DNA of 64,000 nucleotides, taken from positions 128,593 through 192,592 of the forward strand of contig WJKK01000001.1 in assembly GCA_014729135.1 (NCBI GenBank), read 5' to 3'. Below, piece after piece: positions 7,721 through 34,275 of this stretch. The notes under the pieces were generated by a model. The model had not been told where the DNA came from. It was given only the letters and a program-made list of their open reading frames with translations, and did not search any database. Position numbers and translations under genes: made by a program. The first letter of the stretch is position 1, and every line of letters starts with the position of its first letter. This DNA is from a candidate division WWE3 bacterium. GTDB lineage: Bacteria > Patescibacteriota > WWE3 > UBA101185 > UBA10185.

Positions 7721-7794
7721 GCGAACTATTTTAACGCGGGTATTTGTTTGAAAATAACAAGTCGCATTAGATAATTATTCTTGTCATCCAAGCC

Positions 7795-9139: not shown

Positions 9140-9228
9140 GCTTCCTGCGACTTGTTAGGTATAACAAAAAGCTCACTCATGCTCGCTTTTTGTTAAACCT
9201 TAAAGGTTTTCTTACGAAAACACTTTAA

Positions 9229-9305: not shown

Positions 9306-9320
9306 TGCTAAAATTAAGAC

Positions 9321-10352: not shown

Positions 10353-10394
10353 AGCGCTTTCAAATCCCCAAACAACCCCCTATACTATAAATAC

Positions 10395-18795: not shown

Positions 18796-20262
18796 TTAGC
18801 GCTTCTTGGGATCACCCTTAATCCAAGCACTCACCTTCTTAGGCATCTTAACTGATGTAATACAAGTAAAAATCATGATAATCGGCGTAAACACAGCAGT
18901 AAGGCCACTCTGCAACAATAAGTCGGTCATACCTCCCTGAGCCTGGGAAAGAAAGGCAATAAAAGGAAAAGCAAACGTAAGCGCCAAAACTAAAACCATA
19001 GCAAAAATGGACAAAACACCTGCGGCAATTTCCTTAAACCAATTTAGTATCATATCCTCCTTACCGGGAATAACACCCAAAGCAAAGTAAATAGGTGAAA
19101 TCACAATGTAACTTAGAAGCTTAATGTATGTAACTAAAACCTTTATAAAGGCTATCAAGGCTACCACCAGTAAAACTATGAGGAAAACTAACATGCTAAA
19201 TAGCAAGGTAAGCCCCATACCGGCATTCCAAAGCAAGCCATTAACCGAAGCTAATACACCCCAACCAATATAGGAAAAGGCACCGGAACTACTTAGATCG
19301 TTCAAAATTTCGGTACTTGCCCATGTATCAACGGCAGTATCTGCTACCAATTCCACAGGTAATACTACAGCCAACCCCATCAAGGGGCCTGTTAGGCGAA
19401 CAAGAAGCGTCCCTATGGGATAACTAAAAAAGATGAGGGCAATAGATAGAGCGATACGGGGAAGAGAATTCTGAACAGTTACTACCGCTTGGGGATTTAT
19501 CTTTTTGCGTGTCATTATCATAACCCCTACCACTAACAAAAAGATGGACATTAGACCCAAGGCTATATTGCGAGTAAGTTTCCACATAGCAAAAACCAAC
19601 TTAGCTCCTAAATAATTGTCGGGAGTACTTTGTGCGTACGCTGTATTCCTGACAACAGGAATACGCTGTGCATAATCCTTGAAAAAGTAGGCCATATTTA
19701 CAGGAATCTCTTCCCTATGCACAGTGTGTTCAAGATTAAGAACCATACCCAATAAACTACCACTTCCACTTATATCGGCGGAAGTGCCTATAGAGAAAGC
19801 CGTCTCGTTAAGAGCGCAGGCCTTGGGATCATAAGTCTTAACCATCTCGGCAGCATCTATAGCTACCTGAGTATCTTCTTCGGGAGTAGAACTATTAAGC
19901 TGAATAGACTCACACGTGTTGGGAATAAGGTCACACCCGGTACCTGCCCCTAACAAATTACCACTTTTGTCCAAATCCTTTGCTACCATAGCACAGTTGG
20001 TCAAGGTATCAGGGTTCTTTCCTGTGGTACCTAAACTGGTCATGTCTATAAGCAATCCGGAACCTGCTCCAATGGCCGTCTTTAAAATATTATTCTCACG
20101 GTATTCTCTATCAACAGCCATATGCCATAAGTGATTGGCCCCACGAAAAACGTCACCCACAGCTGCTTCTGCAGAAGGGGTAAAAAAACTTATTGAGGAA
20201 AGTGAAACCACAAAAGCAACCATCAAAGCGGGCAAATATCTTTTAATTCCCCTATTGTTCAT
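18796..20262 (-). CDS. secreted N-domain plus polytopic membrane protein with VirB6/TrbL-like topology
   Basis: Signal peptide ending AEA-AVGD. A Cys-containing extracytoplasmic domain of about 230 aa follows. Then at least 6 TM helices in the C-terminal half. No enzymatic motif. Confidence 0.45.
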   Translation of the reverse strand: MNNRGIKRYLPALMVAFVVSLSSISFFTPSAEAAVGDVFRGANHLWHMAVDREYRENNILKTAIGAGSGLLIDMTSLGTTGKNPDTLTNCAMVAKDLDKSGNLLGAGTGCDLIPNTCESIQLNSSTPEEDTQVAIDAAEMVKTYDPKACALNETAFSIGTSADISGSGSLLGMVLNLEHTVHREEIPVNMAYFFKDYAQRIPVVRNTAYAQSTPDNYLGAKLVFAMWKLTRNIALGLMSIFLLVVGVMIMTRKKINPQAVVTVQNSLPRIALSIALIFFSYPIGTLLVRLTGPLMGLAVVLPVELVADTAVDTWASTEILNDLSSSGAFSYIGWGVLASVNGLLWNAGMGLTLLFSMLVFLIVLLVVALIAFIKVLVTYIKLLSYIVISPIYFALGVIPGKEDMILNWFKEIAAGVLSIFAMVLVLALTFAFPFIAFLSQAQGGMTDLLLQSGLTAVFTPIIMIFTCITSVKMPKKVSAWIKGDPKKR

Positions 20263-20383
20263 AGCAAGTCAAATTTTATACTCACAACAAGAGTCCTGTC
20301 AAGAAAAACAAAAACGTAAAAAATCTGCAAATTAAAATAAAAAACTTTAAAAAGCCACCTTTTAAAGATAGAATAGTCTTGTT

Positions 20384-23300
20384 ATGCCAAAACCAGTAGG
20401 ATACAGCGGATATTATCCCGGCGATGAAATGATTCGCCAGCCCGGTGGAGGGCGTCCCAAACCTCCCAATGTTTACGATCTAAATGTTATTGCAGATGAA
20501 ATAGACCAATTCGGTTTTGCCCTCGAAGGGGTTCCTGAGTGGATTAAAGAGAAAATGACGGTGGGAGTACAGCAAAGTTTAAGAGCCAATGTTTTCTCCA
20601 AACCCATAAGCCCAGGAGACATGCAGGCATTTGAAGATGAAGAGCTGGAAGAAGAACTTACAGACATAACCGGACAAGCGGGACTTTCCATAAACTTAAA
20701 CCCCGTAGATATAGCTAAGGATCCTCAAAAATGGGCAAAGAAACTTGCAAAAGGGACATGGGCAGAGTTAAACCCACTGGGAGGAGACCTTGAAGCACGT
20801 AAACGTCAAGCTCTTTGGGCGGGCGCAATGGGCATAGGTAAAAATGGAGAATGGGCAACGGATGCAATTAAGCGCCAGGCCATTCGTCGAAGTGGAGAAG
20901 GCAGCTTCTTAGGTGCAGACATTAGCGACAATCCCCTTAACTTAACAACAGCTCTAGGAGAGTACGGAAAACTGGGAGAAAATGTTGCAACAAAAGCAGC
21001 CGATTTTGAAGCAAATATTAAAACGGCGCTATTTAGAGATGCAAAATTCGATGATGTTATGCGAGCCTCTCTTTCTGGCGCCAAAGCAGTAATAGCGGAC
21101 AACATAGAAACTCTTGCAGATAATGTGCATGCTGATGATGCTGTGGCTGCCATAGCATTTAGTGCAAAAGTAGATCTGGCTAAACATATGGAAGACACTG
21201 CGGAAGCTGTAGATGATGCTGTTGAAGCTATTAAACGCTTAGCGCAAGAAGACGGAGCTCTTGATAAACATGGAAAACCCATTGAACTTGATAAAGAAAT
21301 AGCCAAATTAAATCAACAGTTAGCAAAAACTGAAGCTCACATCCAATTAATGGAACAAGGAAGAGATGCTTTGAGCAGACACCAATTAGAACTTTTGGGA
21401 ATTGCTAAAGGGGGTAATTTAGTAGCGGGAAACATATATGCAAGTGATCTTTTGGATGGAGTAGGTCCTCTCTTAACTGCAGATGGCCTTAGAAGAATTC
21501 ATCCTCAAATTAACGGCTGTAGAGGAATACTAAAAAACATAAACCAGGTTGCCACCGGACACAAAGATAGAGGCAGCTCTTTTGGGCTAAGGCAACTTGC
21601 GGAGAAGCTTTCCACAACAACAGTTAATCTTACAGGAAATGGGGCAAGCCTCACATCCCTTGATTTTAACAGTCTTGAAAGATCCCTTCTTAGACAACTT
21701 TCTGATGAATTCACAAGAGGACTTATCACAGGACGGGAAGCAGCAACCCGCTTAGAAGACATCTATAGAGGCTTAAGCCCCGACGGCAAAGAATATATGC
21801 GACGCATCCGCAGATTACTTCCTACTTTAGAAAAGGATCGCCAGTTCTTTGCAGTTGATGACTTTATGGATGCAATGTATTCTGATGACCTGTTCACCAA
21901 ATTTTTATGGGCAGCTCGACTAAATCCGCGATTAAAAGCGCTAACCCCCGGATACTGGACGGGCGAATTCATGGAAAAGATGCACTACTTTGGATTGTTA
22001 GTGGATGAAGGTTCTTTATTGGATGCAAATGGAAACCCTATAAATCCTAAATTCTTCCTTTACAAATGGATGAACAAGTTTGTTATGAGCAGAGATGGCC
22101 TGGCAAACAAGTTCTCTATAGATATAGAAGGCTTTGGCTCCCATGTTGTTAGAGGGGGACATCACTTTGGTGCAGTTAAAGAATTACACACCCTGCTAAA
22201 GGGAGATAAGATAAGTCCGCAACAACTTTCCCTACTGATGAAAGCCGGCAGCGAAAGTGACATTAGAGCACTCCTTGCAGGCTTTGTGGGACCGGATGAA
22301 AAAAAATTCTTTACAGATCCGGAAAAACTGGACAGATTAGCAAAACAAGTGAAAAAGTTACGCGATTGGGTACAAAAAAATGCCCAAAGACTGGGGATAG
22401 ACATCAATAAGGGAGAAGATCTTGCAAAACTTCTTGCAGGGCTCATGAAATATGATGCTAACAAAGTTAAAAACATAGGTATTGGGATCACAAAAGCTTT
22501 TAGGGGCAAACTTCAACACTTAGTCCAAAAATTAAGCTGGCTACAAGATAAGATTTTTAAGAGTTTTGCCGGAAAAGTGGTGGGAAAGTTTTTATCATGG
22601 AAAACGGCCATTTCTACAGCGATTTCTGAAATACTCATGGATGCCGTGGTAGCTATAACGGGAGGAGTGGGCGTGTTATTTAAGCCCTTAGAAGTCCTGC
22701 TTCAGGCGGCTATTAGAATTATTCTGGACATTGGAGAGAAAGTAATCCTAAGTATACTTAAGGCAGATTTCGGCGAACTAGGAAAGTTTTTAGATAAATC
22801 ACTGATAAATGTTGCCAAATTCTTTGCACAAGTAACTGCGGTAATAGTTTTTGCTGTAGCAATACCTGCCATGATAGTGGTTACTCTGTTAAGCGGAATT
22901 CCTCCCGTAAACCATGCAAATGTAGGTGCTTTAGGAGGCGCAGGAGCAGGCGGAACCGGAGACGGTGGTGGACCCACCCCTCGAGTACTCCCCCCTATAG
23001 AAGCGGGAACCTGTTTCTTCGAAAACAATCAAGGCTTTTTAACATACCCATCCTTTGGATATAATTCCAGTACAGGAGAATATAACAACTCTTGTTCAGG
23101 ATACTATTCACCTTACTACGGCCACGGAACCTATGCCTACTCATATTGCTATAACATCCCCAATCTTTGGTTCATTAGCCAAACATCCAAAATGCTAACA
23201 GGCTGTGAAAGAGTATCGCGCTGCTCTTCCAGTGCTGCAGAAGCCACAGATTATTTTGGAATGGCTGCAGACTTTGCAAGGGATTATAATGCTCCCTCCG

Positions 23301-23620
23301 AGCTCTCCGAAGTATACCTTCCTGAATTAGGCAATCCAAATGAGGACGGGGACATTATATGGAACGTCGTGGATACCTCTTTTCATAATGGATTTGGAGC
23401 CCATGTGAACTTACGTAGAAGCGATGGAGAAAATGATTACTACATGCAAATCCTACACATAGTAGGAAACAATAATTTAACAAACGGAGCAGAACTCGAA
23501 GCCGGAACACACATAGGCAGACTTTACGATCTAAGTGGAACCAGAAATCACGTTCATATAGAATTAGAGGTGGATGGAGAAATTAGAAGACCTGATTATG
23601 TTTTTTGCACAGGAGAGTAA
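20384..23620 (+). CDS. 1078-aa multidomain protein: long Ala/Lys-rich helical region, TM segment, Gly/Cys-rich linker, C-terminal M23 (LytM-type) metallopeptidase domain
   Basis: C-terminus ...NGFGAHVNLRRSDGENDYYMQILHIVGN...GTRNHVHIELEVDGEIRRPD carries the M23 HxH motif. TM segment VTAVIVFAVAIPAMIVVTLLSGI near residue 800. Gly tract GGAGAGGTGDGGGPTP. Confidence 0.65.
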   Translation: MPKPVGYSGYYPGDEMIRQPGGGRPKPPNVYDLNVIADEIDQFGFALEGVPEWIKEKMTVGVQQSLRANVFSKPISPGDMQAFEDEELEEELTDITGQAGLSINLNPVDIAKDPQKWAKKLAKGTWAELNPLGGDLEARKRQALWAGAMGIGKNGEWATDAIKRQAIRRSGEGSFLGADISDNPLNLTTALGEYGKLGENVATKAADFEANIKTALFRDAKFDDVMRASLSGAKAVIADNIETLADNVHADDAVAAIAFSAKVDLAKHMEDTAEAVDDAVEAIKRLAQEDGALDKHGKPIELDKEIAKLNQQLAKTEAHIQLMEQGRDALSRHQLELLGIAKGGNLVAGNIYASDLLDGVGPLLTADGLRRIHPQINGCRGILKNINQVATGHKDRGSSFGLRQLAEKLSTTTVNLTGNGASLTSLDFNSLERSLLRQLSDEFTRGLITGREAATRLEDIYRGLSPDGKEYMRRIRRLLPTLEKDRQFFAVDDFMDAMYSDDLFTKFLWAARLNPRLKALTPGYWTGEFMEKMHYFGLLVDEGSLLDANGNPINPKFFLYKWMNKFVMSRDGLANKFSIDIEGFGSHVVRGGHHFGAVKELHTLLKGDKISPQQLSLLMKAGSESDIRALLAGFVGPDEKKFFTDPEKLDRLAKQVKKLRDWVQKNAQRLGIDINKGEDLAKLLAGLMKYDANKVKNIGIGITKAFRGKLQHLVQKLSWLQDKIFKSFAGKVVGKFLSWKTAISTAISEILMDAVVAITGGVGVLFKPLEVLLQAAIRIILDIGEKVILSILKADFGELGKFLDKSLINVAKFFAQVTAVIVFAVAIPAMIVVTLLSGIPPVNHANVGALGGAGAGGTGDGGGPTPRVLPPIEAGTCFFENNQGFLTYPSFGYNSSTGEYNNSCSGYYSPYYGHGTYAYSYCYNIPNLWFISQTSKMLTGCERVSRCSSSAAEATDYFGMAADFARDYNAPSELSEVYLPELGNPNEDGDIIWNVVDTSFHNGFGAHVNLRRSDGENDYYMQILHIVGNNNLTNGAELEAGTHIGRLYDLSGTRNHVHIELEVDGEIRRPDYVFCTGE

Positions 23621-23636
23621 TTTAAAAAATTCTTAG

Positions 23637-24197
23637 ATGAGAAATATTAGGGAGTTACTTAAAAAATACAAAACCCCTCTTCTTATTTTGGGTGTACTTT
23701 TATTGGGGGCTCTTTTCCTCGTTATAATGGAGCTATCCGGAAAAGTTGAAGATACTCCGGTAGCCCCGGTTGTTATTCAGGAAAGGGAAAAACCAACGTA
23801 TGAGGCAAAAGTCCAAAAAACAACACCTTATGATGGAAGTACAGAGGCAAAACAAGGAGATAAAATCAAAATCCATCTGGAAGAGCCTGTGAAAGTGGAA
23901 ACAGTGGAGTATCGAGTCACTCCGGAAATCTCGCTAGCTTTTAGGACTTACGATGAAAGAAACAGAATCGTAACGATATTCCCCGATGAGGAAATCTGGA
24001 AAGAAAACGTGCCATATACAATTACAATAACTCAGCTGGAAAATGCCGAGGGGGAGGACCTTGGAAAGCCAATTGAGTACACATACATTTTTAAGCGACC
24101 CGAAAAATTTGAGGGAGGGGAAAGTTGGTTAAATGAGGAAGGTGCTGAAGAAAATAAAGATTATCAGGAAGATTTTCTGAATTCTGTTAGAAATTAA
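23637..24197 (+). CDS. hypothetical N-terminally anchored extracytoplasmic protein
   Basis: 186 aa. TM anchor LLILGVLLLGALFLVIM followed by a hydrophilic domain. The start is 17 nt after the M23 protein's stop, so it is probably co-transcribed. Confidence 0.5.
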   Translation: MRNIRELLKKYKTPLLILGVLLLGALFLVIMELSGKVEDTPVAPVVIQEREKPTYEAKVQKTTPYDGSTEAKQGDKIKIHLEEPVKVETVEYRVTPEISLAFRTYDERNRIVTIFPDEEIWKENVPYTITITQLENAEGEDLGKPIEYTYIFKRPEKFEGGESWLNEEGAEENKDYQEDFLNSVRN

Positions 24198-24339
24198 AAA
24201 GACCTAAAATGCGGGGTCCCCGGGAGGAGGTACTGGAAGAGGATCTCCAGGTATGGGGTCAACGGGCTCCAAAGGACCTATAGGACCAGGAGGCGGGACC
24301 GGATCGGAAACTACAGGGGGAACTCCCGGAGTAGGACCA

Positions 24340-24744
24340 TCACTCGGAAGGGGTATTGCCTGTCCACTCTACAAGCTCCGAAATCCCCTGGCGTAAGCTG
24401 CCAAAGACACCTCCTGCATCCCCCGCATTAGTACCCAAAATACCATTCACAATAACATTAATCACAAAGACACCTATAACTATTAAAAGACCAATTACCG
24501 AAAAGGTTAAAGATTGCTTAGCTCCAGCGGTTCCTTTGGGATCCCCCTGAGCTGTTGCAAATTTGTAGGCTGAAAAGATCACCATTACTATGAAAACAGC
24601 TCCGGCAGAAAAAACCAAAACATTAAAAGCGCGTGCCAATACATCCACTATTTCCACAACAGTACCGACACTGTTTAAATCTGCCGGATTTTGGGCGTAC
24701 ACAACTGAAGCAGGTAAAAGTTTTAAAAGTGACAAATAAAGCAT
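24340..24744 (-). CDS. small two-TM protein, paralog 1 of 4 (VirB2/TrbC-pilin-like topology)
   Basis: 134 aa. Signal-like N-terminus ending VYA-QNP. Two hydrophobic helices separated by the loop ATAQGDPKGTAGAKQSL. Paralogous to the three upstream genes. Confidence 0.5.
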   Translation of the reverse strand: MLYLSLLKLLPASVVYAQNPADLNSVGTVVEIVDVLARAFNVLVFSAGAVFIVMVIFSAYKFATAQGDPKGTAGAKQSLTFSVIGLLIVIGVFVINVIVNGILGTNAGDAGGVFGSLRQGISELVEWTGNTPSE

Positions 24745-24747
24745 GAT

Positions 24748-25065
24748 TTAAAAAGTGGGCACCGCTCCCTCCAAGTCTCCCCCGGAAACACCTAAAATAC
24801 TATTTACAATTATATATTTTAAAGCAATAGCTCCAACGGAAAGAACTAAAGCAACTATAGCATATGTAAGTGAATGCCTAGCACGCTCCATGTTGTCGGG
24901 ATTACCTCCGGCAGTTACAAAGCGAATGCCTGCTAAGCCAATGAAAATAATAGATAAAGATATACCCACACCCATGAAAAGATTAATGGCAACTCCAAAG
25001 AATTCGCCAACTGAATTGTATCCGGGATCGGGAATCCCGTTCCCGCTTACTACATACTCAAACAT
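24748..25065 (-). CDS. small two-TM protein, paralog 2 of 4
   Basis: 105 aa. Shared NSVGE motif, TM1, loop TAGGNPDNMERARHSL, TM2. Confidence 0.5.
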   Translation of the reverse strand: MFEYVVSGNGIPDPGYNSVGEFFGVAINLFMGVGISLSIIFIGLAGIRFVTAGGNPDNMERARHSLTYAIVALVLSVGAIALKYIIVNSILGVSGGDLEGAVPTF

Positions 25066-25187
25066 TTGTTTTTCTTAAATCTAAAAACTTAATTCAAAAA
25101 ATTGGAAGACCAAGACCTCCAACTTAAAGTAGAACAGAACACGCAAACGAACCGGGAGAATTAAATCTCCCGGAACGTTACTTGAAT

Positions 25188-25544
25188 TTACTCGGTACTA
25201 CCCGCACCTGCACCATCGATCACAAGGTTGGCATCCACACTGGAAATATCAGCATCCAAAATAGAATCTAATACTATTGTCTTAACAGCCAAGGCTCCCA
25301 ATGTAATGATTAAACCAATAACTGCATTTGTTAACCAAGTTCTAGCCTCCTCTGCTGCTTTAGCATCACCTTTTGCAGTGATGTATTTAATACCTCCCAA
25401 TCCTAAAAAGATAACCGAAAGGGATACAGCCACACCCATGATCACGTTCATAGCGACTCCAAAAACAGCAGCCAAACTATCAAAACGCTCCAAAGGATTA
25501 CTTACATTAGTACCTACACCCTGAGCATATACTCTTGTTAGCAT
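25188..25544 (-). CDS. small two-TM protein, paralog 3 of 4
   Basis: 118 aa. N-terminus MLTRVYAQG matches the signal-peptidase region of paralog 1. Loop TAKGDAKAAEEARTWL. Confidence 0.5.
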   Translation of the reverse strand: MLTRVYAQGVGTNVSNPLERFDSLAAVFGVAMNVIMGVAVSLSVIFLGLGGIKYITAKGDAKAAEEARTWLTNAVIGLIITLGALAVKTIVLDSILDADISSVDANLVIDGAGAGSTE

Positions 25545-25594
25545 TCAAATACACCTCCTTTAAAAAACTGATAAACGCTAAAGCCAGCTTAAAG

Positions 25595-25972
25595 CTAAAA
25601 CGAAGTATCAAATAAACCTGTTACTACTACTCTATAAATTGCAACTGCAGAAAGCACAAAAGCTAAGCCAATTATAGCAGACGTAAGATTTTCCCGAGCA
25701 GACTGCACTTTTCGGGGGTCACCCTCACTTGTCAACATTCCATAACCGTTCACTACTATCAAAACGAGCCCTATAATTATTGCTCCCGGCAAAAGTATTC
25801 TGTAAATGGCTGCAAATAAATTCTCTATAAGGTCGGTATCCCACCACTCGTCATCGGCTAACACAACTCCTCCGGTGAAAAAAGCAACGTATAAAAAAAC
25901 AAAGGCCTTCTTAAACAGAGTCACACCGCGAGTCAAACTGGGTAAAAATTTCCTTTGATATAATTTAAACAT
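25595..25972 (-). CDS. small two-TM protein, paralog 4 of 4
   Basis: 125 aa. Loop TSEGDPRKVQSARENL. Its start codon overlaps head-to-head with the start of the divergent gene at 25971. Confidence 0.45.
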   Translation of the reverse strand: MFKLYQRKFLPSLTRGVTLFKKAFVFLYVAFFTGGVVLADDEWWDTDLIENLFAAIYRILLPGAIIIGLVLIVVNGYGMLTSEGDPRKVQSARENLTSAIIGLAFVLSAVAIYRVVVTGLFDTSF

Positions 25973-27908
25973 GTCTGCCTTAGATTATCCTTATAAGAGA
26001 ACGTTACGTCAAGAAACTAAAAAGGGAATTAAAAAAAGTGAAAAGTCCCTAGGGACAAATCCTTTGATAACAAGGTTCAATGTGAAAAAAGTGACAGCAA
26101 AAACAGCACTTACAATAACTTTAACGCTTCTATTAGGCCTCAGTTTAGTCTTCACTTTAAACATTCCCACCTTTGCAAAAGACTGCGATGATATTTCAGA
26201 TCTCGATGATCGCGCAGCCTGCTACGAAGAAAAAAAGGAAGAAAAGGAAGAAGAAGCATCTTCAATTAAAGATAGCCTTGAAAACCTCCGAGAAAAAATA
26301 GGGGAACTTTCGGGAAAAATCACAAATTTGGCATCTCAAATTAACATCACTCAAGGCGAAATAAATTCCCTACAAGCAACCATTAACGAATTGGAAAAAG
26401 AAATTGAGGAGATTAACAAAAATCTTAAAGATCGCCGAACAACTATGGCAGAAAAGGAAAAGCTTCGAAACACCACATTACGCAACCTTTCCAAGAAAAA
26501 CGTGCTTACTAAATGGGAAAAGTTTATAGGGGGTTCTGATGATTTAGCCAGCTTAAACGGCTTTGAGTACGCTACTTTTAACTATATTTTTGATCGTGCC
26601 TTAAGTAAAAATGCTTTAAATTGGATTAAGGTTTTAAATGAAGAGATTCAAAGTTTTGAGGCAGATAAAGCGGAAGCGTTGGAATTGAAAAATGAAATTG
26701 CTCAGGAGCAGACCAACTTAATTGCTGTCAAAACTCAAATGGATAGGCAAAAGGCGGAAGCAGAAAATGTTAAAGGGGCGTTAGATGAGGAGAAGGAGGA
26801 AAAGACAGAAAAATTGCTGTCACTGGAAGAAGAAATTGCCAAGCTTTCTGAAAAACAGCAAGCCATTTTGTCACAAAAGTACGGAAGTGGCTATGTAAGT
26901 GGTTATGAATCTGCAGAATATAAATTACCTGACTGCCCTTTTGATAAAGGGTTTGCCGTCATGAGCTATGGTGCTTTCACACACTACAAGGGAATGAGCC
27001 AATATGGTGCTAAAGGCCGCGCTAAAGATGGCCAAGAGTATAAAGAAATTATTAAGTTTTATTACGGCGAAGATGTAAAAGAAAAAGATGATTTTCCTGA
27101 TGAAGTTTGCGTTCAAAATTACGGAGACATGGACTTCCAGGAGTATTTGTACGGCCTGGCAGAAATGCATGACTCCTGGCCGGAGGATGCCTTAAAAGCC
27201 CAAGCTATTGCAGCACGCTCTTATGCTTACCGATATGTTAAGGCCGGGAAATGTATCTGCACAAGCCAAAGCTGCCAAGTCTTTTTAAAAAGCAAAAGCG
27301 ACAACCCCCCAGGCGACTGGAAAGATGCCGTTGATGACACCAAAGATAAAATTATAGGCGGAAGCACGGATGCCTCCGGATACGGATGGTACTCCTCTAC
27401 AGCGGGAGGATACATTGAAAACCGTGGATGGGACTCTGATGGAAATTGGCCCGGAAACGCCTACGAAAAAAAAGCTGAATCCCCATGGTTTTACAAAGCC
27501 TGGCACACCCAAAGTTATCACAGCAACTCCAGTACGTGCGGGCGATCAACTCCTTGGTTAGATGAAGAAGAATTGGTTGACATACTTAATGCCTGGGTGG
27601 TGTGGCGCAAAGGAGACGATGGGGATAAAGACAACATCTCCCCCGTAACTACAAGCTGTTGGGGAGGCGATCCTTACTCTATGGATAAAATGCGAGAAAA
27701 AGCAGGCGATTACGGAGAAAAATACACGAGCATATCCAAAGTGCATACACCTTCTTTTGCGTCCGGCAGAACAACAGAAATCTGCTTTGAAACAAATCGG
27801 GGTAAAAAATGCCTCGATGGAGAGGAGTTTAAAACTGTCTTTAACTTGAGGGCTCCGGGATATGTAGCCATTCGTTCACGCTTGTTTGATATTGAGATGG
27901 ATGACTAA
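25971..27908 (+). CDS. coiled-coil protein with C-terminal SpoIID/LytB domain (cell-wall glycan-processing)
   Basis: N-terminal TM anchor and a long coiled coil. SpoIID signature GMSQYGAKGRAKDGQEYKEIIKFYYG and ALKAQAIAARSYAYRY. Confidence 0.7.
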   Translation: MSALDYPYKRTLRQETKKGIKKSEKSLGTNPLITRFNVKKVTAKTALTITLTLLLGLSLVFTLNIPTFAKDCDDISDLDDRAACYEEKKEEKEEEASSIKDSLENLREKIGELSGKITNLASQINITQGEINSLQATINELEKEIEEINKNLKDRRTTMAEKEKLRNTTLRNLSKKNVLTKWEKFIGGSDDLASLNGFEYATFNYIFDRALSKNALNWIKVLNEEIQSFEADKAEALELKNEIAQEQTNLIAVKTQMDRQKAEAENVKGALDEEKEEKTEKLLSLEEEIAKLSEKQQAILSQKYGSGYVSGYESAEYKLPDCPFDKGFAVMSYGAFTHYKGMSQYGAKGRAKDGQEYKEIIKFYYGEDVKEKDDFPDEVCVQNYGDMDFQEYLYGLAEMHDSWPEDALKAQAIAARSYAYRYVKAGKCICTSQSCQVFLKSKSDNPPGDWKDAVDDTKDKIIGGSTDASGYGWYSSTAGGYIENRGWDSDGNWPGNAYEKKAESPWFYKAWHTQSYHSNSSTCGRSTPWLDEEELVDILNAWVVWRKGDDGDKDNISPVTTSCWGGDPYSMDKMREKAGDYGEKYTSISKVHTPSFASGRTTEICFETNRGKKCLDGEEFKTVFNLRAPGYVAIRSRLFDIEMDD

Positions 27909-27985: not shown

Positions 27986-29464
27986 ATGTGGCCGAAAAAA
28001 CCAAAAGAAATAAGTAAAATTCATGTAATTCTATTCCTGCTGGGAATCTTCATCTTGTATACTCCCCCAATAGATCCGGATTTCGGGTGGCACTTCAAAT
28101 ACGGGGAATTTATTGTCCAAAACAAAGCTATCCCTAAACAAAACCTATTTTCCTACACTATGCCAAATTACAGGTGGGCAAATTCTTATTGGATATCAGA
28201 AGTTATTTTATATTTAACATACTCAACTTTAGGAACGCTAGGTGCAGGATTACTGTTAGCAGGCCTTGTAACTTTCATCACAATTAAGATACTTGAAAAT
28301 TACTTCAAGGATCAAAAAAACAGCACTATAAATCGATTCTCTAAAAACTTAATACTAAGCATAAGCAGTCTAATAATTTTCGTTTACTATGGATATGCTG
28401 CTGTACCCTGCAGACCTTTGCTGGCAAGTACTATCTTTCTTCTTGTCCTCACTTACACCCTTCTAGAAAAAAAGGAAAACATCAAATGGCTTCCATTTCT
28501 ATTCTTGACATGGGCTAATATGCATGCCGATTTTACTTTAGGTCTGGCAATCCTGGGAATATATAACTTGCAAATCCTTATTCAAGGGGGAATTAAAAAA
28601 GATAATATGAAAGTGCACTTAATTTCGCTGCTTTGTGTAATTATCACCGTAATTAATCCTTATGGAGTTAGGTTGCATGAAACTCTCCTTAAAGAAACCC
28701 ATCCCCTGCAGTTTAAACACATAGTTGAGTGGCTCCCCCTGGTTAAAAAAGACTTCATGACCTTTTATTTTGTAACAATGGGTCTGTTTTGGGCAGCTAT
28801 CTTACAGATTAAAAACATGAAAAAACATATTTGGTATCTAATTGTAGTAACAGCATTTTTCATAGCGTCTATAAGATCCACCTATTTCATTCGGATTTTT
28901 GTGATATTGGCAATATTTCCTTTTGTGGATTTTTGCAAAGAATGGCTGAGTGAAATAAAAAGCTTATTTAGAAAAAATGAAAGAATGCGCATAAAAAAGG
29001 CTTATAACTACACAAGCTTTGCAATTTTTCTAATTTTTGGAGGAAGTTTTGCGATAAATGTTTATGAAGGCAGGCATCCTGAAATATGGCAGAAAAAAGC
29101 AGGATATCCTTATGACGATGTTCAATATATAAAAGAAAATCCTGAAAAATTTAAAGGGAGGATGTTTAACGAATACTCTTGGGGAGGCTATCTTATTTGG
29201 CAACTCCCTGAACATAAAACTTTTATAGATGGGCGTATGCCCTCCTGGAGGGACGATGAAAATAACTCGGTTTTTGAAGAATACATTAAAATAACCAAAA
29301 AACTAGAAAACCGAGAGGCTCTACTAGAAAAACATGAAATCAAATGGATCCTAATGGAAAAAGATTCCAAATTACCAAAACTACTTGAAGAAACAAATGG
29401 CGATAATTGGTACCTCTTAAAACAAAGTCAATCTACATACTTACTTAAAAAAAGAGAGCAATAG
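27986..29464 (+). CDS. polytopic membrane protein (GT-C-like glycosyltransferase or membrane polymerase-like)
   Basis: 492 aa with at least 10 predicted TM helices and a C-terminal soluble domain. No clear motif. Confidence 0.5.
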   Translation: MWPKKPKEISKIHVILFLLGIFILYTPPIDPDFGWHFKYGEFIVQNKAIPKQNLFSYTMPNYRWANSYWISEVILYLTYSTLGTLGAGLLLAGLVTFITIKILENYFKDQKNSTINRFSKNLILSISSLIIFVYYGYAAVPCRPLLASTIFLLVLTYTLLEKKENIKWLPFLFLTWANMHADFTLGLAILGIYNLQILIQGGIKKDNMKVHLISLLCVIITVINPYGVRLHETLLKETHPLQFKHIVEWLPLVKKDFMTFYFVTMGLFWAAILQIKNMKKHIWYLIVVTAFFIASIRSTYFIRIFVILAIFPFVDFCKEWLSEIKSLFRKNERMRIKKAYNYTSFAIFLIFGGSFAINVYEGRHPEIWQKKAGYPYDDVQYIKENPEKFKGRMFNEYSWGGYLIWQLPEHKTFIDGRMPSWRDDENNSVFEEYIKITKKLENREALLEKHEIKWILMEKDSKLPKLLEETNGDNWYLLKQSQSTYLLKKREQ

Positions 29465-31299: not shown

Positions 31300-31860
31300 A
31301 TGAGCATAATATTCTCCTCATTTATAAAAGAACCAAAAAGAACAAGCTTTGATGGCGAAGACCACGACGAAAGAATCATCTACATTCTAAGACGCAGCTT
31401 CATCACCAACTTAGACTGGATAGCAGCAGCAACAATAATGCTTCTCATCCCTTTCGCCTTAGACCTTCTTTACGCAAATGCAAGCCTCCAAAACCTACCT
31501 TCCATATCCGGCCGACTAGCCTTCATTTTAAACATCTTCTGGTACTTAATCACTTTCGGATTCATCTTTCAAAGCTTTCTAAACTGGTTTTTTAACGTCT
31601 ACATCATCACCAACAAAAAAATCGTAGACGTCGACTTTCATGGAATCCTTTACAAAAATATCTCAGAAGCAAGCCTTAAAAGGGTAGAAGACGTAACCTC
31701 CAACATAACGGGAGCCTTAAGAGTAATTTTCAACTACGGCCACGTTTACATTCAAACCTCCGCAGAAAAAAGGGAATTTGACTTTGAAGACGTCGCCAAC
31801 CCTGCCAAAATCAGAGATTTGATAGCAGATTTGTCCATGGAGGTGAAAAATGGAGCCTAA
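31300..31860 (+). CDS. membrane protein, bacterial PH-domain (DUF304/YdbT)-like
   Basis: 186 aa. Two TM helices after ERIIYILRRSF, which is the typical DUF304 topology. Confidence 0.4.
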   Translation: MSIIFSSFIKEPKRTSFDGEDHDERIIYILRRSFITNLDWIAAATIMLLIPFALDLLYANASLQNLPSISGRLAFILNIFWYLITFGFIFQSFLNWFFNVYIITNKKIVDVDFHGILYKNISEASLKRVEDVTSNITGALRVIFNYGHVYIQTSAEKREFDFEDVANPAKIRDLIADLSMEVKNGA

Positions 31861-32077
31861 CGCGTTGTTTTTTACAGGATTTGAGACGATTTTTAGCTAT
31901 GCGCTTCTTTTTGGAGAGGCTGTGTATGTTTTGTTTGCTTTTATTACGGTCAGGCAAGTGCGCTTAATGAATGCAAGTTTTGAGACCATTATGAAGCCAG
32001 TGTTTTTGACAGTTGCACGCCTCCACTTTGTGTTTTCCCTAGGGCTTTTTCTTCTTTCATTGTTGCTGTTGCTTTAG
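31850..32077 (+). CDS. small hydrophobic protein (uncertain)
   Basis: 75-aa ORF with two hydrophobic segments, overlapping the upstream stop. No homology recognised. Confidence 0.25.
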   Translation: MEPNALFFTGFETIFSYALLFGEAVYVLFAFITVRQVRLMNASFETIMKPVFLTVARLHFVFSLGLFLLSLLLLL

Positions 32078-32196
32078 TCTTTGGAAAACTTTTCAATGGA
32101 GTGGCCGGTGCGCCTTGAGAGCTTCCGGGAAAGGCGGGAAAAGAGGGAGTTACAAAGCTTTTAAAAATGGTGCCAAAAAGAGAAAACTAACAACCT

Positions 32197-34275
32197 ATGC
32201 CAAAACAATTATCCGCAAAAACCCAGGAAATAAAATCACCGCTTCCGCCTACTTCAAAGGAATTTGCAGATACTATTTCGTTTAAACCTGAAAAAGACTC
32301 TCCGCAAAGGCATAAAGGCAGTTTGTACGGAATCTACAGTATTAAAGACCAAACGGCATATGAGACGGATCTTTTAACAAAGCTGATTACGGATATTTTA
32401 AAGGAGTCTTATTATCAGTCGGAGAATGCTTCACCAATTCAAGCTTTGGAAAACGCTATTACGGAGGTGAGAGGTAAGGTTTTGAAGTTGAAGGAGACGG
32501 AGGGTGAGGAGATGTCGGGGGATCCGGTGACTAAGGAGAAAGCTATGCTGGAAACTCCGGAATCCAAAAAAGAGGATCTGAAACCTATCTTTAACATAAC
32601 TGTAGCGGCCTTGTGGGGTGATGTTTTGTATCTGGTGGAAAACGGCAAAACAGGCGGTAACACTTACATTGTAAGGGAGGGCAATTTTAAGCAGATAGAG
32701 ACGGTGAAAGAAGGCAAGTTTGCGGTGGCTACGGGAATGGTTAATCCGGGAGATGTTGTTGTTATGTCTACAAAAGAGTTTGAACTTAAGTTTCCTCCTA
32801 AAAAGCTTCTAAAGTTGAATCCAACTAAACTAAAGGAGTTGGAGTTTAACGAAGCTTGTGTAATGGTTAAGTTTGATCTGGAAGAGGGGACTAAAAAAGT
32901 GAAGGAGAGTAAGGGGCTTTTAAATTTGGGATTTGGCTCACCGGAGGGTCCGAAGGGACTGAGAGGAAAGCGGGAGAAAGGGGCTTTGCAAAAACCTGCG
33001 GGAGCTGCAGAAGCCGGGGGAAGAGTTCAAAACTTTAGGGAGTTTAAAAAAAGCTTGGGATTTGGTTTAGACCTTGGCTTGGATCTAGGAGCAAAAACCG
33101 GATTGAGAAAAATCTTTACACAGGCCAAAAAAGAGTTAAATACACCTACAAACCCCGATGAGGCAAAGCGGTTATCCGGTGAAAAGGAACGCTCCAAAGT
33201 TGAAAGCTTTCCCAAAGCAAAAAGAAGTGCAGCTACTCCAAGGAGAAAACAATTCCCTAAAAGATTGGAAGCAAGCAAAGTAGAAGCTATCAAAAAGCGA
33301 CGGAAACAAATAGTTATAGGAATCTTAGCGGCAGCTTTTGTAATAGCAATTGTTCAAACAGTGCGTGCAAAAAGACAAGAACAGGTAGAGGAAACGGAAA
33401 ATCCGGGAGGTGTGGTGGAAGGAATTGCAGAAACGAATCCTGAGGGAACTGACACAGATGAGGAGAGCCAAGAGACAGACGCCTCTCAAAATCCCCAAAA
33501 CAGTGAGATATTCTATGACATCAAAATTGTAAATGCAGATGCCAACCCTAAATACTTGGAAATTACTAAAGACAAAGTTATTGTTGCGGATGAAAACGGC
33601 ACTTTATATGCCTCTGCTGTTGATACGCCTAAATTTGAGGAAATAGCTCAATTTGAAAAAATAACCGACATGGAAATTTCAGATGAGTTGGTTTTTGTTG
33701 CAACGGAGGAAAAAGTTTATGTTTACAACACTGCTACAGAAAACACTTCAGAAATAAGTGTGAGTACTTCTAAAGCCATTTTCCCCTATCTACAAGCGCT
33801 ATATCAAGTAGAAGAAAACGAAATTTTGAAATATAATCTGAATCTGCCTGAGAATACCGAAACGGAAATCACGGAGACAGTTGAGATTTTGGACAGTTCT
33901 ACATGGGCTCAAAGTGAGAAATTTAGGGATGCTAAGGACATGGCAATTTCTATCAGCATTTTTGTGCTTACTAAAGATGACGAAATTGTAAAGTATACAA
34001 GTGGTACAAGGGGAAGTGTTGAAACTGAAAGTTCCTTAGAGGGGGCCACCGGATTAAAAACGCAGTGGGATTGGGAAAATATGTACGTTGTAAAAGGGAG
34101 TGCTTTTGTAGGGGGCAATGGTTCTAATGAGCTTTTGGTCTTAGATAAAAGCGGCAATTTTGCTAAGGTGATAGCAAGTCCTGTTTGGCAGGATTTAAGG
34201 GATGTGGCAATTTCTGCAGATGAGTCTGAAGCGTTTGTGCTGAATGGTTCGCGGGTTTATCGTGTGGAGTTGTAA
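32197..34275 (+). CDS. large hypothetical protein with a central TM helix and C-terminal repeat (beta-propeller-like) domain
   Basis: 692 aa. TM segment IVIGILAAAFVIAIVQTV near residue 370. Repetitive beta-strand-rich C-terminal half. Confidence 0.5.
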   Translation: MPKQLSAKTQEIKSPLPPTSKEFADTISFKPEKDSPQRHKGSLYGIYSIKDQTAYETDLLTKLITDILKESYYQSENASPIQALENAITEVRGKVLKLKETEGEEMSGDPVTKEKAMLETPESKKEDLKPIFNITVAALWGDVLYLVENGKTGGNTYIVREGNFKQIETVKEGKFAVATGMVNPGDVVVMSTKEFELKFPPKKLLKLNPTKLKELEFNEACVMVKFDLEEGTKKVKESKGLLNLGFGSPEGPKGLRGKREKGALQKPAGAAEAGGRVQNFREFKKSLGFGLDLGLDLGAKTGLRKIFTQAKKELNTPTNPDEAKRLSGEKERSKVESFPKAKRSAATPRRKQFPKRLEASKVEAIKKRRKQIVIGILAAAFVIAIVQTVRAKRQEQVEETENPGGVVEGIAETNPEGTDTDEESQETDASQNPQNSEIFYDIKIVNADANPKYLEITKDKVIVADENGTLYASAVDTPKFEEIAQFEKITDMEISDELVFVATEEKVYVYNTATENTSEISVSTSKAIFPYLQALYQVEENEILKYNLNLPENTETEITETVEILDSSTWAQSEKFRDAKDMAISISIFVLTKDDEIVKYTSGTRGSVETESSLEGATGLKTQWDWENMYVVKGSAFVGGNGSNELLVLDKSGNFAKVIASPVWQDLRDVAISADESEAFVLNGSRVYRVEL

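What the first reader, a model, noticed from the sequence alone, without database searches (positions are those of the whole stretch)
18796..27908. Candidate novel envelope-spanning pilus/secretion-like module without recognisable ATPases
Five features co-occur in about 9 kb: a secreted-domain-plus-polytopic membrane protein with VirB6/TrbL-like topology (18796-20262); a 1078-aa Ala/Lys-rich helical protein with an internal TM and a C-terminal M23 peptidoglycan hydrolase (20384-23620), as seen in Gram-positive conjugation hydrolases and phage tape-measure proteins; a membrane-anchored 186-aa protein; four tandem paralogous two-TM mini-proteins whose size and topology resemble VirB2/TrbC pilins (24340-25972); and a coiled-coil SpoIID/LytB-like wall-remodelling protein (25971-27908). 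No VirB4, VirD4 or VirB11-type ATPase, relaxase, or phage capsid/terminase gene is visible here. The gene set therefore does not fit a canonical T4SS, type IV pilus or prophage. The combination of pilin-like subunits, a channel-like membrane protein and two cell-wall hydrolases suggests a dedicated cell-surface apparatus. It could be relevant to an epibiotic or host-associated lifestyle in a small-genome bacterium.
Basis: partly seen in the sequence, partly recalled or inferred. Interest (0 to 1): 0.75.

Follow-up and report, generated by a model that had tools for sequence, protein, structure and literature searches.

The report
Pilin half of a CPR T4SS
This 9-kb cluster is the pilin, channel and cell-wall-cutting part of the type IV secretion system already known from ultrasmall "CPR" bacteria; it lacks a motor ATPase only because this lineage encodes that part outside the window, so it is not a new kind of machine.

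Summary
All eight ORFs exist exactly as described, in a candidate division WWE3 (CPR/Patescibacteria) chromosome about 15 kb from dnaA.

**What the genes are**
- The four small proteins match PF18895, the VirB2-like T4SS pilin family.
- The 645-aa protein is SpoIID/LytB.
- The 186-aa protein is a membrane-anchored Ig-like protein.
- The 1078-aa protein belongs to a small lineage-restricted family. Its extracellular head swaps between members (M23-like, CHAP, C39-like, HExxH).

**Where the ATPase is**
- No VirB4, PrgI or TrsD lies anywhere in the 64-kb window.
- In sister WWE3 genomes the same block is followed directly by PrgI(VirB3)–TrsD–VirB4–DnaN–DnaA.
- In the window's clade PGK follows instead.
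- WWE3-like contigs also exist with PrgI–TrsD–VirB4 and no adjacent VirB6.

**Verdict**
This is the pilin/VirB6/hydrolase sub-locus of the published Patescibacteria T4SS, detached from its ATPase operon. It is not an ATPase-less new apparatus, a prophage or an ICE. Whether this genome keeps virB4 could not be tested. It is a new member of a known kind, of moderate-to-low interest.

The parts
18796..20262 (-). VirB6-like polytopic membrane protein (488 aa; NCBI MBD3365835.1, GF360_00660): signal peptide, ~200-aa extracytoplasmic domain, at least 5 TM helices.
20384..23620 (+). 1078-aa membrane protein (MBD3365836.1), read here as bitopic: a conserved N-terminal NPxYxGYYPG motif, a long helical N-part inferred to be cytoplasmic, a strong TM at 817-835, a Gly-rich linker and an extracellular Cys-containing M23-like head. 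Inferred to be the system's tethered wall hydrolase (VirB1/PrgK-type role).
   Evidence: The family alignment is and the TM prediction. The Pfam M23 match is sub-threshold. A 40-member profile hits PDB M23 proteins. Other family members carry CHAP (4 of 40), Peptidase_C39_2 (3 of 40) or HExxH heads. Only 166 cluster representatives exist among 1.84 billion. The gene is always adjacent to the VirB6-like gene in WWE3-type loci. The AF2 model was unusable (pLDDT 35).
23637..24197 (+). 186-aa membrane-anchored Ig-like (Big_5) protein, probably co-transcribed with the 1078-aa gene (16-nt gap). Its role is unknown; it may be an extracytoplasmic scaffold.
   Evidence: Pfam Big_5 scores 35.3 bits against a cut-off of 23.6. 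A TM lies at 15-33. It holds the same position in most WWE3-type loci.
25595..25972 (-). VirB2-like pilin A (125 aa): long signal peptide plus a two-TM hairpin. Its orthologues in several relatives carry a 200-400-aa N-terminal extension.
   Evidence: PF18895 scores 38.6 bits against a cut-off of 26.6, and PF04956 TrbC gives a weak 16.8 bits. It is 45-49% identical to its positional orthologues and 21-23% to its window paralogues. Extended forms occur in L010 and L012-L015.
25188..25544 (-). VirB2-like pilin B (118 aa), with no signal peptide.
   Evidence: PF18895 scores 28.2 bits. It is 62-69% identical to its positional orthologues in L002 and L008.
24748..25065 (-). VirB2-like pilin C (105 aa), with no signal peptide and a conserved C-terminal (G)xxPTF.
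   Evidence: PF18895 scores 29.9 bits. It is 52-53% identical to its positional orthologues.
24340..24744 (-). VirB2-like pilin D (134 aa): short signal peptide and a C-terminal extension.
   Evidence: PF18895 scores 22.7 bits, below the 26.6 cut-off. It has weak NCBIfam matches to Mycoplasma ICE pilin-like and conjugal-transfer families. It is 50-53% identical to its positional orthologues.
25971..27908 (+). SpoIID/LytB-type wall-remodelling enzyme (645 aa): TM, ~250-aa coiled coil, catalytic domain.
   Evidence: PF08486 scores 61.8 bits and TIGR02669 87.2 bits against a cut-off of 83.3. It is adjacent to the pilin array in WWE3 loci and in Daviesbacteria L005. In L027 and L057 it lies on the same strand between the pilin array and the VirB6-like gene.
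20273..20302 (-). Promoter-like site (TTGACA-18-TAAAAT, 11 of 12 matches) just upstream of the VirB6-like gene.
   Evidence: This is a consensus match only, and the region's total count of such sites is not above shuffled controls.
25956..26012 (.). Face-to-face promoter-like sites around the overlapping divergent start codons ('CATG' at 25970-25973). TGATATAAT at 25956-25964(+) ends 6 nt before the SpoIID ATG. TTGACG-17-GATAAT at 26012-25984(-) ends 11 nt before the pilin A ATG.
   Evidence: The 2-nt start overlap recurs in L002, L008, L010 and L012. That the transcripts are leaderless or nearly so is an inference.
31300..34275 (+). Conserved neighbours of uncertain membership: a bPH_2-like membrane protein (31300-31860), DUF5657 (31850-32077) and a 692-aa bitopic protein (32197-34275).
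   Evidence: DUF5657 scores 53.9 bits; bPH_2 is weak at 17.4 bits. In relatives the bPH_2-like gene sits directly beside SpoIID (L005, L010, L014, L017) or one gene away (L012); the neighbouring genes were also seen in L005, L014 and L017. No evidence ties them to secretion.

Best explanation
The region encodes the membrane and extracytoplasmic half of the Patescibacteria-type type IV secretion system. That system is derived from the monoderm (MPF-FATA) conjugation machinery and carries added VirB2-like pilins.

**Shown**
- Four ancient, non-redundant VirB2-like pilins.
- A structural VirB6 homologue.
- A SpoIID/LytB enzyme.
- A membrane-anchored protein with an M23-like head.
- In sister genomes this block is contiguous with PrgI(VirB3)-TrsD-VirB4 next to dnaN/dnaA.

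**Inferred mechanism**
- The pilins insert into the membrane as two-helix hairpins.
- They are extracted and polymerised on an oligomeric VirB6-like platform into a pilus or conduit.
- The M23-like endopeptidase is tethered to the machine by its large cytoplasmic helical domain. Together with the SpoIID-type lytic transglycosylase it opens the peptidoglycan locally. This is the VirB1/PrgK role.
- Energy comes from a VirB4-PrgI-TrsD module that in this clade has been moved elsewhere in the 864-kb chromosome.
- No relaxase or coupling protein is present in the window, and the block is a stable near-origin chromosomal locus. The system therefore most likely serves host interaction (import or export of macromolecules at the epibiont-host interface), not conjugation.
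For: **Component identities**
- PF18895 pilins.
- VirB6 fold by two methods.
- SpoIID.
- M23-like head, with other hydrolase heads in the same family.

**Synteny**
- WWE3 loci L013 and L015-L018 (genomes) and L063, L066 and L077 (metagenomes) place the VirB6-like gene, with as much of the SpoIID/pilins/Big_5/~1100-aa block as each contig or locus retains, directly before PrgI/TrsD/VirB4/DnaN (DnaA beyond, where the contig extends).
- L066 continues with the same genes as the window, from dnaA to tsaD.
- Daviesbacteria L005 has SpoIID, five pilins and a homologue of the 488-aa protein, with PrgI, TraC-like and VirB4 genes about 3 kb further on.
- A pilin array is adjacent to the VirB6-like gene in 44 of 46 species-level loci.

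**Split loci are normal**
- VirB4 lies within 10 kb in only 11 of 34 loci of this family.
- WWE3-like contigs exist with PrgI-TrsD-VirB4 but no adjacent VirB6 (L067-L076, L079, L087/88).
- The literature reports pilins near virB4 in only 1,135 of 1,948 assemblies (PMC12102498).

**Long-term maintenance after the split**
- All non-VirB4-adjacent WWE3 loci group together in a neighbour-joining tree.
- Their ORFs are intact.
- Window pilins are 45-69% identical to their orthologues but 21-38% to one another.

**Location**
- The window lies near the origin (dnaA at 42789-44378), as reported for this system.
Against: - No VirB4, PrgI, TrsD or T4CP is in the 64-kb window.
- The ancestral VirB4 site after dnaN is empty: dnaN's stop at 48018 is followed by dnaG's start at 48058.
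- I could not examine the rest of this genome, so 'VirB4 in trans' is inferred.
- The VirB6 assignment rests on a medium-confidence model (mean pLDDT 63) with no sequence-level support.
- The M23 head is sub-threshold in Pfam, and the canonical first His of the HxxxD motif is not in its usual place. Catalytic activity is therefore uncertain.
- The roles of the 1078-aa N-domain and of the Big_5 protein are guesses.
- No pilus has ever been seen for this system in any Patescibacterium.
Confidence: 0.8

Rival explanations
1. Autonomous apparatus. In this clade the pilin/VirB6-like/hydrolase module works without a VirB4-type ATPase, either because VirB4 was lost or because another energy source was recruited. 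This is essentially the first reader's reading.
For: No VirB4, PrgI or TrsD is in the window and the ancestral site after dnaN is empty. The module has been kept intact across a whole clade in which it is not next to VirB4.
Against: Sister lineages have the same module fused to PrgI-TrsD-VirB4. [quoted passage not shown] VirB4 is present in about 80% of Patescibacteria assemblies, many of them incomplete, and in 18 of 20 classes. Split VirB4 loci exist in WWE3-like contigs.
Confidence: 0.1
2. General cell-wall or division cluster. SpoIID, the M23 protein and the membrane proteins remodel the organism's own wall, and the small two-TM proteins are unrelated membrane peptides.
For: SpoIID and M23 enzymes are classic autolytic or engulfment enzymes. 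The SpoIID-bPH_2-DUF5657-692-aa neighbours look like housekeeping genes.
Against: The small proteins match the T4SS_pilin family. The 488-aa protein has a VirB6 fold. The whole block is contiguous with VirB4 in relatives.
Confidence: 0.04
3. Decaying remnant of a T4SS after loss of its ATPase operon.
For: The ATPase genes are absent from the window and from their ancestral site.
Against: All eight ORFs are full-length. The arrangement without VirB4 nearby is shared by at least ten related genomes or contigs whose VirB6-like proteins are only 29-48% identical to the window's. Those carrying the pilin array (L002, L008) keep 1:1 pilin orthologues that are 45-69% identical. That pattern indicates purifying selection, not decay.
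Confidence: 0.04
4. Mobile element: a prophage (tape-measure-like 1078-aa protein, holin-like small proteins) or an integrative conjugative element.
For: The 1078-aa protein superficially resembles a tape measure. An integrase gene and tRNA genes lie 7-8 kb away (10988-11881).
Against: Seven of the eight proteins have no PHROG hit, and the eighth shows only coiled-coil noise. No capsid, terminase, relaxase or T4CP was found. GC content equals that of the flanks (0.41). The cluster sits between syntenic housekeeping genes (PGK-AFOR_N-TIM-LytR) at the same chromosomal place in many relatives.
Confidence: 0.02

Closest known systems
Patescibacteria T4SS, e.g. Southlakia epibionticum ML1 SEML1_0006-0019 (Wang et al. 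2023, PMC10633639; survey by Quinonero-Coronel et al. 2025, PMC12102498)
   Same: Both are chromosomal, near-origin systems in a monoderm host. Both have an array of sequence-divergent VirB2-like pilins (PF18895), a VirB6, associated peptidoglycan hydrolases and no relaxase. VirB4/PrgI/TrsD partners are present in relatives.
   Different: Here the pilin/VirB6/hydrolase part is physically separated from VirB4-PrgI-TrsD. The VirB6 is a family that HMMs do not recognise; the survey found VirB6 'scarce' in Microgenomatia. The hydrolases are a SpoIID-type enzyme and a ~1100-aa lineage-specific membrane protein, whereas Southlakia has peptidase and lysozyme genes downstream of virB4.
Gram-positive conjugative T4SSs (MPF-FATA: pCF10 Prg/Pcf, pIP501 Tra, pGO1 Trs)
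   Same: In relatives the ATPase module is VirB4 + PrgI (VirB3-like) + TrsD-like. A membrane-anchored multidomain wall hydrolase is present, comparable to PrgK, and some members of the 1078-aa family carry CHAP heads as in the monoderm VirB1-like hydrolases described in PMC12102498. There are no outer-membrane core proteins.
   Different: Those systems lack VirB2-type pilins and are on mobile elements with a relaxase and coupling protein. From my own recollection, not checked here, PrgK has only a short N-terminal anchor, whereas this protein has about 800 residues before its TM.
R388 Trw / Agrobacterium VirB pilus-biogenesis platform (VirB6 pentamer-VirB5-VirB2; PDB 7o3v) and Legionella DotA protochannel (9ngy)
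   Same: They are the best, and the only outstanding, structural matches of the 488-aa protein. The small proteins have a two-helix hairpin and a charged loop as VirB2 does.
   Different: Sequence identity is 11-15%. No VirB5, VirB7, VirB9 or VirB10 is present, and the host is a monoderm. The 488-aa protein has an extra ~200-aa N-terminal extracytoplasmic domain.
Mycoplasma ICE pilin-like proteins (NCBIfam Mbov_0395 / MMCAP2_0565-0566 families)
   Same: All four small proteins give weak matches (23-27 bits against a cut-off of 40). These are also two-TM pilin-like proteins of a wall-less or monoderm MPF-FATA system.
   Different: All matches are below threshold, and those proteins are ICE-borne.
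Bacillus SpoIID-SpoIIP-SpoIIM engulfment hydrolase machine
   Same: It pairs a SpoIID lytic transglycosylase with a membrane-tethered peptidase to remodel wall at a membrane machine. This rests on my own knowledge; only the domain assignments were tested here.
   Different: There is no SpoIIP or SpoIIM homologue. The context here is a secretion system, not sporulation.

Membership tests
Patescibacteria-type T4SS (MPF-FATA-related) | VirB4-family ATPase (the signature protein of every T4SS) | tested here: not met
   VirB4 is absent from the 64-kb window by Pfam, phmmer and tblastn. It is present directly downstream of the orthologous block in sister WWE3 genomes. The rest of the source genome could not be searched, so the cluster is filed as a sub-locus of the system and not as a complete system.
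Patescibacteria-type T4SS (MPF-FATA-related) | VirB2-like pilin gene(s), often as an array (PF18895) | tested here: met
   Four tandem genes are present. Three score above the PF18895 gathering score and the fourth scores 22.7 bits. They are 21-38% identical to one another, like the ~25% average in published arrays.
Patescibacteria-type T4SS (MPF-FATA-related) | VirB3/PrgI and TrsD/TraC-like partners next to VirB4 | tested here: not met
   None are in the window. They are present in relatives, for example L017, where PrgI scores 35.4 bits against a cut-off of 27.
Patescibacteria-type T4SS (MPF-FATA-related) | Chromosomal, often near oriC, without a relaxase | tested here: met
   dnaA is 15 kb away and dnaN 19 kb away. 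No relaxase or T4CP domain is in the window. The flanking genes are housekeeping genes.
VirB6/TrbL family | Sequence match to VirB6/TrbL/PrgH-type profiles | tested here: not met
   None of 15 family members gives a Pfam hit to TrbL/VirB6 even at E<=1. A family profile finds no PDB sequence hit to TrwI.
VirB6/TrbL family | VirB6 fold (helical polytopic core as in TrwI, PDB 7o3v) | tested here: met
VirB6/TrbL family | Encoded with VirB2 pilins and VirB4 in one locus | tested here: met
   It is adjacent to a pilin array in 44 of 46 loci. It lies immediately upstream of PrgI-TrsD-VirB4 in L013, L015-L018, L063, L066 and L077. VirB4 is not in this window.
VirB2/TrbC pilins | Small protein with a two-TM hairpin, a charged loop and a signal peptide; polymerises into a pilus | tested here: inconclusive
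   The hairpin and a conserved GDPK...A(K/R) loop are present in all four. Only two of the four have a signal peptide. The PF04956 TrbC match is below threshold (16.8 bits against a cut-off of 27.9). Polymerisation cannot be tested with these tools.
Peptidase M23 (LytM) | Profile match and the HxxxD...HxH zinc site | tested here: inconclusive
   Pfam gives 17.4 bits against a cut-off of 28.7. A 40-member profile hits PDB M23 9gy1_A at E=3.3e-4. AAD, LHI and HVHIE motifs are present, but the canonical first His is not at its usual position.
SpoIID/LytB | SpoIID domain above curated thresholds | tested here: met
   PF08486 scores 61.8 bits against a cut-off of 23, and TIGR02669 scores 87.2 against 83.3.
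Prophage | Capsid, terminase, portal or tail genes; phage-family matches | tested here: not met
   PHROGs gives no hit for seven proteins and only coiled-coil noise for the eighth. No phage structural domains are in the window; the only Phage_integrase-family match is the 297-aa XerC/D-like integrase at 10988-11881.
Integrative conjugative element | Relaxase, coupling protein, integrase at the border, variable insertion site | tested here: not met
   There is no relaxase or T4CP. The integrase at 10988-11881 is separated from the cluster by syntenic housekeeping genes. The cluster sits at the same chromosomal position in relatives. GC content is unchanged.

The most novel reading that the evidence does not exclude
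In the WWE3 clade that contains this genome, the pilin/VirB6/hydrolase module has become independent of VirB4. The ATPase operon would have been lost, as the clean dnaN-dnaG junction hints, and the VirB2-type filament or conduit would be assembled without a VirB4 motor or with a different one.

A weaker but more likely novelty (about 0.5) concerns the ~1100-aa family. It would be a previously unrecognised core T4SS component that joins a large cytoplasmic scaffold to an exchangeable extracellular wall-hydrolase head.
Probability: 0.1. Interest if true: 0.75.

Novelty: new member of a known kind. Interest (0 to 1): 0.33.

Why it matters
The Patescibacteria T4SS is essential for epibiotic growth in the one species tested, and its function is still unknown (PMC10633639, PMC11665869).

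This locus adds annotation value more than a new principle:
- It supplies a candidate for the VirB6 that HMM surveys found 'scarce or absent' in Microgenomatia-type lineages.
- It shows that a SpoIID-type enzyme and a lineage-specific ~1100-aa protein with swappable hydrolase heads are the steady companions of the pilin array in WWE3.
- It shows that the four pilins are old, individually conserved orthologous groups and not recent variable copies. That favours a fixed multi-subunit structure over antigenic-variation-type diversity.
- It shows that the system splits cleanly into a pilin/VirB6/hydrolase module and a PrgI/TrsD/VirB4 module that can sit at different chromosomal places.

Tried and rejected
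2. **Search for this genome's own VirB4 using a Daviesbacteria VirB4 query.** All 8000 scored candidates passed the threshold, and every named protein among the 120 listed was from Daviesbacteria or an unspecified Microgenomates/Patescibacteria bacterium. No WWE3 or GF360 entry was visible.
3. **Supplementary tables of PMC12102498.** They hold no WWE3, Katanobacteria or GF360 entry in the stored text.
4. **Word-indexed homologue search with the 1078-aa protein.** It gave only 2 hits, the query's own entry and one homologue.
5. **AF2 model of the 1078-aa protein.** It was built from a 2-sequence alignment and was unusable (pLDDT 35). No fold search was run on it.
6. **The afdb50 library.** It was unavailable.
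7. **PDB sequence search with the 13-member 1078-aa family profile.** It returned only coiled-coil noise.
8. **Prophage or tape-measure reading.** Rejected.
9. **ICE reading.** Rejected on synteny, GC content and missing hallmark genes.
10. **The ~1270-aa protein that follows the VirB6-like gene in L011 and L014.** I checked whether it is an ATPase. It has a signal peptide and no Walker A motif, so it is not.
11. **The ~1030-aa protein upstream of PrgI in split VirB4 loci.** I checked whether it is another VirB6. It is an epimerase-fusion protein with one TM.
12. **Promoter and terminator scans.** The counts are not above shuffled expectation, so individual sites are only suggestions.

Full report
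**Origin and setting**

The 488-aa and 1078-aa proteins are identical to GF360_00660 and GF360_00665 (MBD3365835.1 and MBD3365836.1). They come from a candidate division WWE3 (CPR/Patescibacteria) MAG, on an 864-kb contig.

The window is ordinary chromosome.
- One side carries MetRS, SmpB/tmRNA, tRNAs, LytR, TIM and PGK.
- The other side carries TsaD, a 5'-3' exonuclease, MurT/GatD, dnaA (42789-44378), YidC, dnaN, dnaG, sigma-70, MutS, LeuRS and FtsH.
- GC content across the cluster is 0.41, the same as the flanks.

**Observation check**

- The four small proteins match PF18895 'T4SS_pilin': 38.6, 28.2, 29.9 and 22.7 bits against a gathering score of 26.6. They also give weak matches to TrbC/VirB2 and to Mycoplasma ICE pilin-like families.
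- Each has a two-helix hairpin around a conserved GDPK...A(K/R) loop.
- The 645-aa protein is SpoIID/LytB, above both curated thresholds.
- The 186-aa protein is a TM-anchored Big_5 Ig-like domain.
- The 1078-aa protein has no signal peptide and a strong TM at 817-835. Its M23 match is sub-threshold.
- The 488-aa protein has no family match at all, even across 15 homologues at E<=1.
- No VirB4, VirD4, relaxase, capsid or terminase domain is found in any ORF of at least 120 aa in the window.

**The 488-aa protein is a VirB6**

I built an AlphaFold2 model from 15 homologues. Mean pLDDT is 63, and most of the membrane part is at 70-88.
- Foldseek independently ranked five TrwI chains first, with probability 0.95-0.98 but weak E-values.

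It is not upheld at the sequence-family level.

**Synteny decides the interpretation**

Relatives of the 488-aa protein were found in 55 species-representative genomes of WWE3 and Microgenomatia (Shapiro-, Woese-, Levy-, Ames- and Daviesbacteria). I mapped their neighbourhoods with phmmer.

Three results follow.
1. The unit SpoIID / pilin array / Big_5 / ~1100-aa protein / VirB6-like is conserved in WWE3-type genomes whose VirB6-like proteins are only 30-48% identical to the window's.
2. In WWE3 loci L013 and L015-L018, and in metagenome contigs L063, L066 and L077, the VirB6-like gene, with as much of this unit as each contig or locus retains, is followed directly by PrgI (VirB3-like; Pfam 35.4 bits in L017), a TraC-like/TrsD protein, VirB4 and then dnaN, with dnaA beyond where the contig extends. 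L066 then continues through the very genes seen in the window from dnaA to tsaD.
3. Daviesbacteria L005 has SpoIID, five pilins and a homologue of the 488-aa protein, with PrgI, TraC-like and VirB4 genes about 3 kb further on, all between smpB and dnaN.

The module is therefore part of a VirB4-based T4SS.

**Why no ATPase is seen here**

In the window and its nearest relatives, PGK-AFOR_N-TIM-LytR follows the VirB6-like gene instead of PrgI-TrsD-VirB4. These relatives are L001/L009, L003, L008, L010, L012 and L143-L145.
- In a neighbour-joining tree of the VirB6-like proteins, all non-VirB4-adjacent WWE3 loci group together (no bootstrap). This suggests one ancestral rearrangement.
- In the window, dnaN is followed 40 bp later by dnaG, so the ancestral VirB4 site is empty.
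- tblastn finds no remnants of VirB4, PrgI or TrsD anywhere in the window.

Split loci are common.
- Across the family, a pilin array adjoins the VirB6-like gene in 44 of 46 loci.
- VirB4 is within 10 kb in only 11 of 34 loci.
- A metagenome scan with WWE3 VirB4 found contigs carrying PrgI-TrsD-VirB4-dnaN preceded by unrelated genes (an epimerase fusion, GroEL, a UvrD-like helicase, dnaG/sigma-70) and no VirB6-like gene (L067-L076, L079, L080, L087/88).

I could not search the rest of this genome. A VirB4 operon elsewhere is a strong inference and has not been observed.

**The pilins**

The four paralogues have 1:1 positional orthologues in L002 and L008.
- Window pilins are 45-69% identical to their orthologues in L002 and L008.
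- Window paralogues are 21-38% identical to one another.
- They share lineage-specific termini, such as ...PTF in pilin C.

They are old, individually conserved subunits and not recent variable copies. Two of them (B and C) lack signal peptides in all three genomes. In several relatives the first pilin carries a 200-400-aa N-terminal domain.

**The 1078-aa protein**

An exhaustive HMMER search of 1.84 billion cluster representatives found only 166 relatives, mostly 1000-1500 aa long.

Alignments show the following layout:
- a nearly invariant N-terminal NPxYxGYYPG motif;
- a variable coiled-coil stretch;
- a conserved central region;
- the TM;
- a Gly-rich linker;
- a variable head.

The head is M23-like here; a 40-member profile hits PDB M23 9gy1_A at E=3.3e-4. 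It is HExxH-type in L011, L014 and L017. It is CHAP in 4 of 40 members and Peptidase_C39_2 in 3 of 40.

Exchangeable wall-hydrolase heads on a constant body fit a T4SS-tethered VirB1/PrgK-type function. Daviesbacteria has an analogue after VirB4: a 632-aa bitopic protein whose C-terminal sequence looked SLT-like by eye, with no profile test.

The AF2 model was unusable (pLDDT 35). The N-domain fold and the membrane topology remain inferred.

**Rivals**

- Prophage: seven of the eight proteins have no PHROG match, and the eighth shows only coiled-coil noise. No phage structural genes are present.
- ICE: there is no relaxase or T4CP, the chromosomal position is fixed and the composition is native.
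- Relic: the ORFs are intact and the orthologues conserved across a clade.
- Autonomous ATPase-less machine: this cannot be excluded without the whole genome. It is unlikely given the contiguity with VirB4 in sister lineages and the status of VirB4 as the only protein with homologues in all known T4SSs (PMC12102498).

**Comparison with the literature**

Wang et al. 2023 showed that an essential T4SS with an essential pilin series exists in Southlakia (PMC10633639).

Quinonero-Coronel et al. 2025 surveyed 3,035 Patescibacteria genomes (PMC12102498). They reported:
- VirB4 in about 80% of assemblies;
- 441 VirB2 arrays of 2-11 genes, especially in Microgenomatia and Saccharimonadia;
- pilins near virB4 in 1,135 of 1,948 assemblies;
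- VirB6 scarce in Microgenomatia;
- few VirB1 homologues;
- frequent proximity to dnaA and dnaN.

A 2025 review lists these systems as the one monoderm exception that has VirB2 pilins (PMC12857230). I found no WWE3-specific description.

**Verdict**

This is a further example of a published system. It adds annotation insights:
- a fold-level VirB6 for WWE3 and Microgenomatia;
- SpoIID and the ~1100-aa swappable-head protein as steady partners;
- fixed pilin orthogroups;
- a two-module architecture.

Interest is moderate to low.

Noticed in passing
window 25956-26012: The divergent start codons of pilin A (-) and the SpoIID-like gene (+) overlap in a 'CATG' at 25970-25973. The same 2-nt overlap occurs in L002, L008, L010 and L012. 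An extended -10 (TGATATAAT) ends 6 nt before the SpoIID ATG. A TTGACG-17-GATAAT site on the other strand ends 11 nt before the pilin ATG. This suggests leaderless or near-leaderless transcripts from promoters lying inside each other's ORF.
   Followed up: partly
window 46906-49833: dnaN's stop (48018) is followed 40 bp later by dnaG's start (48058). In most related WWE3 and Microgenomatia contigs VirB4 lies within a few kb of dnaN, directly abutting it in the WWE3-type ones. The ancestral ATPase site is therefore cleanly empty here.
   Followed up: partly
window 27986-31209: Two large polytopic membrane proteins sit between the SpoIID and bPH_2-like genes. The second has a sub-threshold PMT_2 match (25.3 bits against a cut-off of 26.1), and the first has no Pfam match. 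GC across this stretch drops to 0.335-0.353 against about 0.41 elsewhere. L010, L014 and L017 lack both genes at this place, and L012 has only the first. This may be an acquired insertion.
   Followed up: partly
window 31300-34275; L005 784-3435; L014 1-1962: A block made of a bPH_2-like membrane protein, DUF5657 and a ~610-690-aa bitopic protein accompanies SpoIID from WWE3 to Daviesbacteria. Its function is unknown, and it is unclear whether it belongs to the T4SS.
   Followed up: partly
L011 47-3268, L014 6653-9955, L017 6422-9565; representatives P0141-P0288: Members of the 1078-aa family carry different extracellular heads on the same body: M23-like, HExxH-type, CHAP or Peptidase_C39_2. 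The extreme N-terminus has a nearly invariant NPxYxGYYPG motif of unknown role.
   Followed up: partly
L010 2660-3697, L012 4016-5047, L013 3368-4336, L014 3891-5294, L015 513-4263, L005 5280-6374: In relatives the first gene of the pilin array often encodes an 'extended pilin': a 200-400-aa secreted N-terminal domain fused to the VirB2-like hairpin. L015 has three of them. The window's pilin A lacks the extension.
   Followed up: no
L011 4689-8495, L014 11425-15264: In two WWE3-type genomes the VirB6-like gene is followed by a ~1270-aa secreted, Cys-rich protein and then smpB, instead of PrgI-TrsD-VirB4 or PGK. The protein has a signal peptide, no Walker A motif and no Pfam hit.
   Followed up: partly
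window 25152-25173 (-): A GC-rich terminator-like hairpin (8 pairs, 6 of them GC) lies in the 122-nt gap between pilin B and pilin C. It might lower expression of the two distal pilins.
   Followed up: no
window 3334-5622: smpB is followed directly by the tmRNA gene (3784-4175; tag ADTMVREPALAGAMA). A SocA/Panacea antitoxin and Fic/Doc toxin pair follows at 4335-5622.
   Followed up: no
window 7506-11881: tRNA-Arg and tRNA-Ala genes are interleaved with three ORFs that have no Pfam match (389, 343 and 198 aa). A XerC/D-like integrase follows at 10988-11881. This may be a small island.
   Followed up: no
window 16530-17420 and relatives: A 280-296-aa protein with only the N-terminal domain of aldehyde:ferredoxin oxidoreductase (AFOR_N) is conserved between PGK and TIM in all PGK-type relatives.
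   Followed up: no
L008, L013-L016, L018, L025-L028 and other loci (record titles): Many TPA assemblies titled 'uncultured Gammaproteobacteria' or 'Candidatus Saccharibacteria' carry WWE3- or Microgenomatia-type T4SS loci. The titles look like automatic mislabels.
   Followed up: no
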